Part shown: piece after piece, positions 25,560 through 50,490 of the stretch | Position numbering within the stretch: the first letter of the stretch is position 1 | How the letters are laid out: each line of letters begins with the position of its first letter | Source: Stegostoma tigrinum | Taxonomy: Eukaryota | Assembly (NCBI RefSeq): GCF_030684315.1 | Contig: NC_081377.1 | Coordinates: 1,922,001 to 1,986,000 of the forward strand | Reading direction: 5' to 3' | Length of the DNA: 64,000 nt | Made by a program: the position numbers and the translations under genes | The notes under the pieces: generated by a model | Database searches by the model: none | Seen by the model: only the letters and a program-made list of their open reading frames with translations | Told to the model about the DNA's origin: nothing

Positions 25560-25715
25560 CAAACTGCTGGAAAATCTCAGCAGGTCTGGCAGTATTTTGA
25601 CTGAAGAAGGGTCACTGGATCTGAAATGTTAACTCTGTTTCTGCCGGACCTGAGTTTTCCCAGCAATTTCTGATTTTGTTTTCCAATTTCCAGCATCTGC
25701 AGTTCTTTGGGTAAT
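25560..25715. mobile_element. PLE-derived fold-back mini-element, family B
   Basis: Inverted arms around ctgaagaagggtcactggatctgaaatgttaac (CpG-decayed hammerhead). Confidence 0.8.
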
Positions 25716-47070: not shown

Positions 47071-47278
47071 CTAGTCGGCATATACTGGTTGGGCCGAAGA
47101 GTCTGTTTCCATGCTGTATGACTCGAAGCCACCTCTCAACCTCCTATGCTCCAGTGAAAAAGTGCCAACCTATCCAGCCTTTGTTTATAACTCAAACCTC
47201 TATCGAGTTTTGAGAAGATTTGTAGCTCAGGTTGAGATTCTGGATGTGAGTTTGCTCGCTGAGCTGGAAGGTTAGTTT

Positions 47279-47318
47279 TCAGACGTTTCGTCACCATTCT
47301 AGGTAACATCATCAGTGA
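47279..47318 (-). ncRNA. Minimal type I hammerhead ribozyme, intact core
   Basis: Exact reverse complement of 48026-48065. Confidence 0.85.
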
Positions 47319-48025
47319 GCCTCTGACGAAGCGCTGGTGTTATGTCCCACTTTCTATTTATCTGGTTAGGTTTCCTTGGGTTGGTGATGTCATTTCCTGT
47401 TCTTTTTCTCAGGGAATGGTAGATTGGCTCCAAATCAATGTGTTTGTTGATGGAGTTCCGGTTGGAATGCCATGCTTCTAGGAATTCTCGTGCATGTCTC
47501 TGTTTGGCTTGTCCTAGGATGGATGTGCTGTCCCAATCAAAGTGGTGTCCTTCCTTACCTGTATGTAAGGATATGAGTGATAGTGGGTCATGTCGTTTTG
47601 TGGCTAGTTGATGTTCATGTATCCTGGCGGCTAGCTTTCTGCCAGTTTGTCCAATGACAAACACTACATTGGACAAACTGGCAGAAAGCTAGCCACCAGG
47701 ATACATGAACATCAACTAGCCACAAAACGACATGACCCACTATCACTCGTATCCTTACATACAGATAAGGAAGGACACCAGTTTGACTGGGACAACACAT
47801 CCATCCTAGGACAAGCCAAACCGAGACATGCACAAGAATTCCTAGAAGCATGGCATTCCAACCGGAACTCCATCAACAAACACATTGATTTGGAGCCAAT
47901 CTACCATCCCCTGAGAAAAAGAACAGGAAATGACATCACCAACGCAGGAAATGACATCACCAACCCAAGGAAACCTAACCAGATAAATAGAAAGCGGGAC
48001 ATAACACCAGCACTTCATCAGAGGC

Positions 48026-48065
48026 TCACTGATGATGTTACCTAGAATGGTGACGAAACGTCTGA
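48026..48065 (+). ncRNA. Minimal type I hammerhead ribozyme, intact core
   Basis: UCA-CUGAUGA-U-GUUACC-uagaau-GGUGAC-GAAAC-GUC^UGA: 3-bp stem I, 6-bp stem II, GUC cleavage triplet; overlaps the end of the GIY-YIG reading frame. Confidence 0.85.
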
Positions 48066-48309
48066 AAACTAACCTTCCAGCTCAGCGAGCAAACTCACAT
48101 TCAAACCTCTATACCCAGCAACATCCTGGTAAGTCTCTTCTGAACACTCTCCAGCTTAATAATAGCCTTCTGGGCAACAAGAACTGGACACAGTATTCCA
48201 GAAGTGGCCTCACTAATGTCCTGTACAACGTCAACATAATGTCCTAACTCCTATACTCAAAGGACTGAGCAATGAAGGCAAGCGTGTCAAATGTCTTTTT
48301 AAACGCAAC

Positions 48310-48535
48310 AAGAACAGAAGCTGCTGGAAGCTCAGCAGGTTTGGCACTATCTGTGAAGAAAAAGTTAGAGTTAAAGTTTTGGGTCCAGTGACCCTTCCTC
48401 AGAACAATTTTGAAGAAGGGTCACCGGACCCAAAACGTTAACTCTGATTTCTCCTCATAGAGGCTGCCAGACCTGCTGAGCTTCCAGCAACCTTTGTTTT
48501 TGTTCCTGATTTACAGCATCTGCAGTTCTCTCACA
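48310..48535. mobile_element. PLE-derived fold-back mini-element, family B, with two back-to-back decayed hammerheads
   Basis: gggtccagtgacccttcctcagaac ... tgaagaagggtcaccggacccaaaacgttaac. Confidence 0.85.
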
Positions 48536-48794: not shown

Positions 48795-50490
48795 GGGGGG
48801 AGGGTAGGAGAGATGGTGACAGGGGCTTATCATGATCGGCCCCTGGGAAGGGAGGAGCAGATAGGTGAGTAGGAAGATGGACAGTTTAGGGCAGGGCAGG
48901 GAGGTGAGGAGGAGGGGGAGGGTTGGACATGGGATAAGGCTGGGGGTGGAGGGATTTCTAAACTGGTGAAGTCAATGTTGACACCATTGGGCTGTAAGCT
49001 CCCAGGGTGAAATATCAGATGTTGTTCCTCCAGTTTATGTTTGGCCTCACTCTGATAATGGAGGAGGTCAAGGATGGACATGTCGTCAGGGGAGTGGGAG
49101 GGGGAATGTCGTCAGGGGAGTGGGAGGGGAATGAAAATGGATGGAAACCAGGAGGTTGGGTTGGTTGATGCATTCTGTATGCATCAACCAATCCAACCTC
49201 CCGGTTTCCATCCATTTTCATGGTCTCATGTTTTTGGTCTCCCCAGAGGGGAGACCACATCAGGAGCAACGAATACAGTAGATCAGGTTGGATGAAGTGC
49301 AGGCGAGTCTCTGCCAGATCTGGAGGGATTGTTTGGGGCCTCGGACAGAGGTGAGAGGGGAGGTGTAGGGGCAGGTGTTGCACCTCTTGTGGTTGTAGGG
49401 AAAGGTAACAGGTGTGATGGAGACATTGGTGGGAGTGTACAACTGATGAGGGAGTCACGGAATGATCGATCCTTGTAGAAAGTGGACAGGGGTGGGGAAG
49501 GAAAATATGTTTTTGGTTGTGGGATCTGATTGTAGGAGGTGAAAATGTTGGAGGATGATGCATTGGGTTCAGAAGTTGTTGGGGTGGCACACAAGGTATA
49601 AGGGGACTCAATCCTTATTGTTGTTGGGGAGAGTGGCAGGGGTGCAAGCAATGGAGGAGATGCGGTTGAGGGCATCCTTAATTACAGAAGAGGGAAAACT
49701 ACAGTCCCTAACTTAGGAGGATATCTGGGATGTCCTGGAGTAGAATGCCTCATTCTGAGAGGAGATGTGGCAGAGGATTTGGGAGTATGGGGCAACATTT
49801 TTTGCAGGAGGGTGGGTGAGAGGAGGTATAATCGATGTAGAGGTGTGAGTCAGCGGGTTTGAAGTGGGTATCAGTGCTGAGTCGGTTTCTGGAGATGGAC
49901 ATGGAGTGGTCCAGAAAGTGGGTGGGGGACAGGTGATAGTGTCAGTAATGGTCCAGATGAATCTTACAGCAGGGTGGAAGGTGTTGGTGAAGTTGTTGCA
50001 CTGCTCAAGTTCCTCACAGAAGCACGAGGCCGCACTGATATAGCAGAGAAAGAGATGAGGGATGGTACCAGTGTAGTTGTGGAAGAGGGACTGTTTCACA
50101 AATCCTACAAAGAGGCAGGCATGGCTCAGGCCCATATAGGTGTCCATGGTCACCTCTTTGGTTTGTTCATGTCCAGCTCTTCTTCCACCTCACCTTCCTG
50201 ACCTGACCTAACCTGTCCATCTTCCTACTCACCTTTCCACTCCACCCTTCCCACAGACCAAGCACAATAACCCCACCTGCCTCCCCCTAGCACCATGTCT
50301 CCTCCCTTCTCCCAGCAACGCTCTCCCCCTTTATTTACTCCTGGGCTCCCCTCCCCCTCCCCAGTCCTGACGAAAAGTTTTACCCAAAACGTTGACTTTC
50401 CTGCTCCTCTGATGTTAGCTGCCTTGCTGTGCTTTTCTAGCCTCACACCTATAGACTCTGACTTCCAGCATCTGCAGTCCCTATTGTTTC
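48795..50490 (-). mobile_element. Older Neptune-type PLE (minus arm 48795-50165 with RT and GIY-YIG; plus-strand pLTR arm 50168-50490) nested in a CR1
   Basis: MGLSHACLFVG, FHPAVRF, KRCNTC, SSNLIYCIRCS, KLEEQHLIFH.GSLQPNGVNIDF; decayed hammerhead at ~50363-50396. Confidence 0.88.

What the first reader, a model, noticed from the sequence alone, without database searches (positions are those of the whole stretch)
47204..48100. ~900-bp near-perfect hairpin with two intact, identical, divergently oriented hammerheads and a GIY-YIG ORF on each strand
Seen: arms of 413 and 434 bp with a 10-nt spacer, a 21-bp internal duplication in one arm only, a 12-bp TSD, and an identical 40-nt ribozyme (3-bp stem I, 6-bp stem II, extra U after A9, GUC site) on each strand. 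A transcript from either strand would contain one sense ribozyme and fold into ~400 bp of dsRNA. Inference: a potential endo-siRNA or ADAR substrate and cruciform-prone site. Survival of such a tight palindrome suggests a young insertion.
Basis: partly seen in the sequence, partly recalled or inferred. Interest (0 to 1): 0.7.

Follow-up and report, generated by a model that had tools for sequence, protein, structure and literature searches.

The report
Ordinary head-to-head Penelope retrotransposon insertion
This 900-base mirror-image stretch is real but ordinary: it is two truncated ends of a very common shark jumping gene (a Penelope-like element) joined head to head, the usual shape of this family's insertions, likely built on landing by copying element RNA from both cut DNA strands.

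Summary
The hairpin is real: arms of 413 and 434 bp with 12 substitutions, a 12-bp TSD, and identical 40-nt minimal hammerheads. It is a head-to-head insertion of two 5'-truncated 3' ends of a high-copy Penelope/Poseidon-type retroelement inside a CR1-type LINE fragment. The form is published and is this family's norm: 57 of 80 sampled loci are head-to-head, and the hammerhead core has 6,988 exact copies. The 'GIY-YIG ORFs' are stumps lacking the GIY half. The 21-bp duplication is a family polymorphism. The copy's divergence is within the family range, so it is not unusually young. In a read-through transcript each ribozyme is predicted to be fully paired to its antisense copy. The tail sits on the arm that is shorter at the junction, which rules out simple fold-back, so priming from both target strands is likely. 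Across TSD-flanked pairs, the arms differ at 16% of subfamily markers against about 2% background, which suggests some insertions used two RNAs. This scan has noted such palindromes, and both one-RNA and two-RNA readings, many times on other DNA.

The parts
47192..47203 (+). Left copy of the 12-bp target-site duplication (TCAAACCTCTAT)
   Evidence: 12-13 bp is the modal TSD length in the family
47204..47243 (-). One-sided 40-bp PLE 'tail' (start of the element's ORF), on the left arm only
   Evidence: 84 of 90 head-to-head pairs have exactly one tail, 0 have two
47244..47656 (-). Left arm: 5'-truncated 3' end of the PLE (endonuclease C-terminus plus pLTR), without the 21-bp duplication
47279..47318 (-). 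Minimal type-I hammerhead motif, left arm
47655..47666 (+). Head-to-head junction: 2-nt microhomology (47655-47656) plus 10 nt of right-arm sequence forming the loop; unique in the genome
   Evidence: 1 match genome-wide with up to 1 mismatch
47655..48100 (+). Right arm: 5'-truncated 3' end of the same PLE family, ending at the tail-less end point
47924..47965 (+). 21-bp tandem duplication, a family polymorphism
   Evidence: present in 36 of 74 position-sampled arms that span it; differs between arms in 11 of 49 pairs
48026..48065 (+). Minimal type-I hammerhead motif, right arm; predicted cut after C48062; overlaps the inferred start of the element's ORF
48101..48112 (+). Right copy of the 12-bp TSD
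47120..48290 (-). Host repeat: 3' fragment of a CR1-type LINE (name recalled) split by the insertion
   Evidence: the flanks map contiguously onto another copy, 45918-45853 and 45847-45675; a related window ORF has an RVT_1 hit

Best explanation
This is a single insertion of a high-copy Penelope/Poseidon-type retroelement, two 5'-truncated 3' ends joined head to head between a 12-bp target duplication, likely made by reverse transcription primed from both nicked target strands. Inferred steps: the element's GIY-YIG endonuclease made staggered nicks 12 bp apart. One cDNA started at the tail end and the other about 40 nt inside, matching the two start sites reported in vitro for Anolis Poseidon. 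Both stopped in the endonuclease region 12 nt apart, their 3' ends annealed through a 2-nt microhomology, and each was filled in on the other. For this copy the template was probably one RNA, or two RNAs of one source, with a slip at the 21-nt repeat. In a minority of other family insertions it was probably two different RNAs. The copy has no RT and half an endonuclease. Its ribozymes are passengers that would be trapped in duplex in any read-through RNA, so it most likely does nothing.
For: Family identity: 5'-longer copies encode RVT_1 (E 8e-10, above cutoff) followed by a GIY-YIG stretch (E 0.0035, below cutoff). The ORF begins inside the pLTR, and near full-length copies exist. Abundance: 6,988 exact hammerhead cores versus 0 for the reversed control. 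Form: 57 of 80 position-sampled loci are head-to-head, 1 is tail-to-tail. Of 90 pairs, 84 have one tail and none has two. TSDs are 12-14 bp in 50 of 90, against 1 of 300 mismatched controls reaching 9 bp. Against fold-back: the loop is sense on the top strand and the tail is on the arm that is shorter at the junction, so neither strand can have copied itself. The tail arm is the shorter one in 31 of 70 pairs. Zero-loop junctions occur, for example L133, L098 and L161. Made in place: the window junction occurs once in the genome. Template sharing: the window arms agree at 12 of 12 markers, and all pairs together share 58 rare variants against about 5 expected. Literature: both target strands are cut and extended, there are two RT start sites, and a dimer is predicted (PMC11167929, parts 1-2 of 4 read).
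Against: The mechanism is inferred from end products; no intermediate was observed. A 2-nt microhomology is weak. An extrachromosomal hairpin later trimmed by the endonuclease could also give one tail; PMC8557442 (passages) ascribes the tail to endonuclease resolution, and PMC3846280 (passages) favours self-priming. Why 22 of 47 position-sampled pairs stop within 30 nt of each other (null 4.5) is not explained by two independent RTs. One identical junction at two sites (L122, L124) hints that some palindromes may move as units.
Confidence: 0.75

Rival explanations
1. Self-priming (fold-back): one cDNA or an antisense template folds on itself and is copied back, and the endonuclease then trims one end to give the one-sided tail.
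For: Proposed in PMC3846280 (passage). There is an excess of near-symmetric junctions (22 of 47 within 30 nt, null 4.5). Pairs within 12 nt differ at only 4 of 90 markers, and the window arms agree at 12 of 12.
Against: In the window the tail is on the arm that would have to be the copy, and the 21-bp duplication differs between the arms. Zero-loop junctions exist. TSD-flanked pairs differ at 51 of 314 markers against 2.1% background.
Confidence: 0.15
2. The palindrome is a self-propagating non-autonomous unit (retrozyme- or MITE-like) that is transcribed and re-inserted whole.
For: L122 and L124 share an identical asymmetric junction with different flanks.
Against: The window junction is unique genome-wide. 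Only 4 look-alike junction pairs turned up among 91 insertions, and one of them has its tail on opposite arms (L076, L148), which points to recurrence at natural microhomologies.
Confidence: 0.04
3. The locus is a functional hairpin, a source of endo-siRNA or an ADAR substrate with active ribozymes, kept by selection.
For: The predicted duplex is very stable (-785 kcal/mol, 420 pairs).
Against: In 90 arms the hammerhead is no more conserved than upstream sequence (1.1% vs 1.0%; downstream 1.8%). The ribozyme is 40 of 40 paired in the read-through fold. There is no A>G excess on the sense strand (7.4 vs 9.4 per 1000 for T>C, 136 arms). Of 37 long window ORFs scanned, one hit Pfam, and that was a LINE RT; short exons would be missed.
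Confidence: 0.04
4. Assembly or fold-back read artefact.
For: None. Public contigs were too swamped by family copies to bridge the junctions.
Against: TSD, one-sided tail, 12 substitutions, an indel, a contiguous empty site and dozens of like loci with their own TSDs.
Confidence: 0.02

Closest known systems
EN+ Penelope-like element insertions with an inverted 5'-truncated copy, a one-sided 30-40-bp tail and a TSD (Pen2a_Av, PMC3846280; general description, PMC8557442; passages read)
   Same: Head-to-head inverted copy, tail at one end only, single TSD, pLTR that contains the start of the ORF.
   Different: Here both arms are short stumps of nearly equal length with no direct 5' pLTR. The TSD is 12 bp against 8-10 bp in the rotifer. 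The form is the majority in this family (57 of 80 loci).
Minimal hammerheads of metazoan PLEs (PMC4209133, parts 1-2 of 4 read)
   Same: Type-I core, unpaired base between positions 9 and 10.1, G10.1-C11.1 pair, long stem II, palindromic 15.2-16.2 in place of helix III. That paper already reports dual motifs about 100-700 bp apart on opposite strands; here they are about 710 bp apart.
   Different: Stem I is 3 bp, against 4-5 bp given for Schistosoma. Cleavage was not tested here.
Poseidon of Anolis carolinensis, PAc (PMC11167929, parts 1-2 of 4 read)
   Same: The ORF starts at stem II of the hammerhead (cut site 26 nt after the start there, 28 nt after an in-frame ATG here). There are two 3' end points about 40 nt apart that define the tail. 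Domain order is RT then GIY-YIG.
   Different: No sequence comparison with PAc was run. In the parts read, the paper does not explain inverted insertions.
L1 twin priming (recalled from memory, no call)
   Same: Both target nicks prime cDNA, and the ends join by microhomology.
   Different: L1 copies two different parts of one RNA. Here both arms copy the same 3' region.

Membership tests
EN+ Penelope-like element | Single ORF with RT followed by a C-terminal GIY-YIG endonuclease (in full-length family members) | tested here: met
   RVT_1 E 8e-10 and GIY-YIG E 0.0035 (below the curated cutoff) in L180; the window stump is 95% identical to its C-terminus
EN+ Penelope-like element | pLTR formed by partial tandem or inverted copies, containing the ORF start | tested here: met
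   L178, L008, L063, L232 and others carry the same end sequence upstream of the ORF
EN+ Penelope-like element | Optional 30-40-bp tail at one end | tested here: met
   3' ends cluster at two points about 40 nt apart; 84 of 90 pairs have one tail
EN+ Penelope-like element | Hammerhead motif in the pLTR | tested here: met
   descriptor scan finds it in both arms; Rfam models do not
Penelope/Poseidon clade | [quoted passage not shown] | tested here: met
   the linker read by eye in the translations has no cysteine cluster
Penelope/Poseidon clade | RT phylogeny groups it with named Poseidon elements | not tested
   no named PLE references were available; protein hits are unnamed
Active hammerhead ribozyme | Self-cleavage after GUC | not testable with these tools
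   minimal motifs were inactive as monomers and weak as dimers (PMC4209133) or needed the PLE protein (PMC11167929); 1 of 30 N-terminal loci starts exactly at the cut site
Retrozyme or self-propagating palindrome | Same unit, junction included, repeated at many loci or in tandem | tested here: not met
   the junction occurs once in the genome

The most novel reading that the evidence does not exclude
The thousands of head-to-head stumps record a two-RT (dimer) insertion machine that primes on both target strands with one RT at each start site. It copies either one RNA twice, giving tight symmetric, same-haplotype palindromes like this one, or two different RNAs, giving mismatched arms within a single TSD. 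In TSD-flanked one-tail pairs the arms differ at 4 of 90 markers when their ends lie within 12 nt and at 47 of 224 otherwise (p=0.00015, threshold chosen after seeing the data). Six of 31 testable pairs reject a 5% mismatch rate at p<0.01.
Probability: 0.4. Interest if true: 0.55.

Novelty: new member of a known kind. Interest (0 to 1): 0.25.

Why it matters
The locus itself matters little: it is one of a roughly estimated 4,000 double-hammerhead palindromes of this family in the genome (scaled). Its value is as one data point on an open question, how Penelope-like elements make inverted insertions, which PMC8557442 calls still undefined. The family record argues against simple fold-back and suggests a mix of one-RNA and two-RNA events, which a marked-RNA assay could test. 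It also shows that long, near-perfect palindromes can persist in large numbers in this genome.

Tried and rejected
Rfam: 0 hits at gathering threshold in the window, and only generic hairpin (miRNA) and snoRNA matches below threshold at E<=10. Pfam on the two window ORFs: no hit. Sequencing runs: no RNA holder listed, which is no evidence on expression. Leading/trailing RTs on one RNA (tail-less arm always longer): rejected, since the tail arm is shorter in 31, longer in 28 and level in 11 of 70 pairs. Equal-length arms (offset of +40 nt): rejected, since offsets centre on 0. The 21-bp duplication as proof of two templates here: rejected, since most duplication-discordant pairs agree at the markers. 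Symmetric versus asymmetric pairs at a 30-nt cut: no significant difference (41 of 306 vs 62 of 347, p=0.13; p=0.13 again). Pairs with and without shared rare variants do not differ in marker mismatch (p=0.66), which is against a clean two-class split. ADAR footprint: none. In-vivo ribozyme cutting: only 1 of 30 N-terminal loci begins at the cut site, so it is not claimed. L124 was dropped as a presumed duplicate of L122 and later proved to be a separate site. Paper searches for 'Penelope + twin priming + inverted' and 'Penelope, pLTR, two RNA, template switch' listed nothing on this mechanism (listings only); the library lacks most subscription papers. No supplements were read; those of PMC11167929 and PMC4209133 may bear on the claims.

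Full report
Observation. The inverted repeat is real. The arms are 47244-47656 and 47667-48100, with 12 substitutions in 413 aligned bases and a 21-bp duplication in the right arm. The 12-mer TCAAACCTCTAT lies at 47192 and 48101. The flanks map contiguously onto another copy of the same LINE in the window, so one insertion split a LINE fragment (the name CR1 is recalled). The two 40-nt hammerhead motifs are identical. Rfam does not detect them, but a minimal descriptor does.

Identity. Each arm has over 2,000 first-look candidates in the 3.2-Gb genome, and the 34-nt hammerhead core has 6,988 exact matches. Longer copies encode RT followed by GIY-YIG, and the ORF starts inside the terminal repeat. 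The RT-EN linker has no cysteine cluster, which fits the Penelope/Poseidon clade as described in PMC8557442 (passages); no tree was built. The closest named proteins are from a carpet shark at 89-91% identity, so the host is likely a shark.

How common the form is. I took the first 100 of the 6,988 matches (contig C1, 0-39.5 Mb), which collapse to 81 loci, and analysed 80; L124 was dropped in error. Of these, 57 are head-to-head, 47 carry two divergent hammerheads and 1 is tail-to-tail. Scaling gives roughly 4,000 double-hammerhead palindromes genome-wide (my estimate). Adding loci found by similarity to the window arms (a biased set) gave 91 pairs among 169 loci, 90 after the drop. Of those 90, 84 have one tail, 6 have none and 0 have two; TSDs peak at 12-13 bp. 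The arrangement is published: inverted copy, tail and TSD in PMC3846280 and PMC8557442 (passages), inverted pLTRs in PMC8969392 (passage), and dual minimal hammerheads on opposite strands 100-700 bp apart in PMC4209133 (parts 1-2 of 4). The retrozyme preprint 10.64898/2026.07.22.740005 (passages) concerns tandem forms, not this one.

Age. The window arms differ from the family majority at 7 and 8 of 378 sites, against a median of 2.9% and a lower quartile of 1.9% in 64 arms. About 1% non-CpG change per arm would be of the order of ten million generations at the epaulette-shark rate of 7e-10 (PMC10587355, passages). This is an upper bound, since RT errors and source differences are included and the species may differ. 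Survival of the palindrome therefore does not show youth.

Mechanism. The loop is sense sequence of the right arm, and the tail is on the left arm, which is 12 nt shorter at the junction. A top-strand fold-back would leave an antisense loop. A bottom-strand fold-back could not add a tail that its template lacks. The tail arm is the shorter one in 31 of 70 pairs, and zero-loop junctions occur. Priming from both target strands, one cDNA from each of the two start points and joined by microhomology, explains all of these. It agrees with in vitro data for Anolis Poseidon: both strands cut and extended, two RT start sites, a predicted dimer (PMC11167929, parts 1-2 of 4). The junction is unique in the genome, so the palindrome was most likely built in place. 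These steps are inferred.

One template or two. The arms of a pair share subfamily variants far more than chance (470 of 575, null 361 +/- 9) and share 58 rare variants against about 5 expected. Yet they differ at 103 of 653 strict markers (15.8%), between the 2.1% background and the 31.5% expected for independent templates, with strong overdispersion (p=7e-9). In 63 pairs with one tail and a TSD of 9 bp or more, 51 of 314 collapsed markers differ. Six of 31 testable pairs reject a 5% rate, and pairs ending within 12 nt differ at 4 of 90 against 47 of 224. The caveats are real. The markers and the threshold came from the same data. The 30-nt cut is not significant. Some markers (2049, 2137) behave like hotspots, shared rare variants do not separate two classes, and gene conversion is not excluded. 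The window pair agrees at 12 of 12 markers and differs only at the slippage-prone 21-bp repeat, which is present in 36 of 74 arms and discordant in 11 of 49 pairs.

Function. On either strand the antisense arm is transcribed first, and the ribozyme is 40 of 40 paired in the predicted fold, so it would not fold in a read-through RNA. The motif is no more conserved than upstream sequence among 90 arms, and there is no A>G excess in 136 arms. No host gene was found among 37 of 44 long ORFs scanned, though short exons would be missed. Expression was not testable.

Earlier scan notes. After forming my reading I found 535 fitting notes in this genome describing such palindromes as twin-primed Penelope stumps, mostly from one RNA, and several proposing two RNA templates. 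None lies near this locus. They are unchecked AI notes and not independent support, but they show that the scan has met this feature many times.

Verdict. The feature is real and well explained, a new member of a known kind. Interest is 0.25. The by-product, a mix of one-RNA and two-RNA events, has probability about 0.4 and would merit about 0.55.

Noticed in passing
L122 and L124 (G000:C1 near 19.85 and 20.50 Mb): Two insertions with different flanks share an identical asymmetric head-to-head junction and nearly identical arms: either a re-mobilised palindrome or recurrence at a short microhomology.
   Followed up: partly
L179, L208, L209, L212, L213, L218-L227, L229: Sixteen loci share at least 1.4 kb of upstream flank (92-95% identical) before the same PLE 5' end, which starts inside the hammerhead after a splice-acceptor-like sequence. 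This is probably one old insertion amplified with a multi-copy host unit.
   Followed up: partly
L178 (same locus as L205): A near full-length copy begins exactly at the predicted hammerhead cut site, joined to its inverted arm by 3 nt of microhomology; 1 of 30 N-terminal loci.
   Followed up: partly
family position about 17 nt upstream of the hammerhead core (window about 48012): The commonest 5' end point of arms (7 position-sampled arms; also L214-L216), beside a short palindrome. It may be the RNA's 5' end or a self-annealing site.
   Followed up: partly
window 48307-48504, 25601, 27452, 51210, 55328, 56550: A second, shorter family of hammerhead-like motifs; the one 200 bp downstream of the finding forms a decayed palindrome. 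The motifs at 25601 and 27452 are identical on opposite strands.
   Followed up: no
L144, L193, L215, L233: Complex insertions with three to five alternating direct and inverted pieces, suggesting repeated template switches.
   Followed up: no
L178:1599-3263 (-): After two carpet-shark proteins, most of the best 120 hits are from tapeworms and flukes (about 37-55% identity) or unnamed records, with a few other shark proteins at about 61-63%; possibly worth a horizontal-transfer test.
   Followed up: no
window 49131-49221: A 43-bp-arm inverted repeat with a 5-nt spacer, not part of this family.
   Followed up: no
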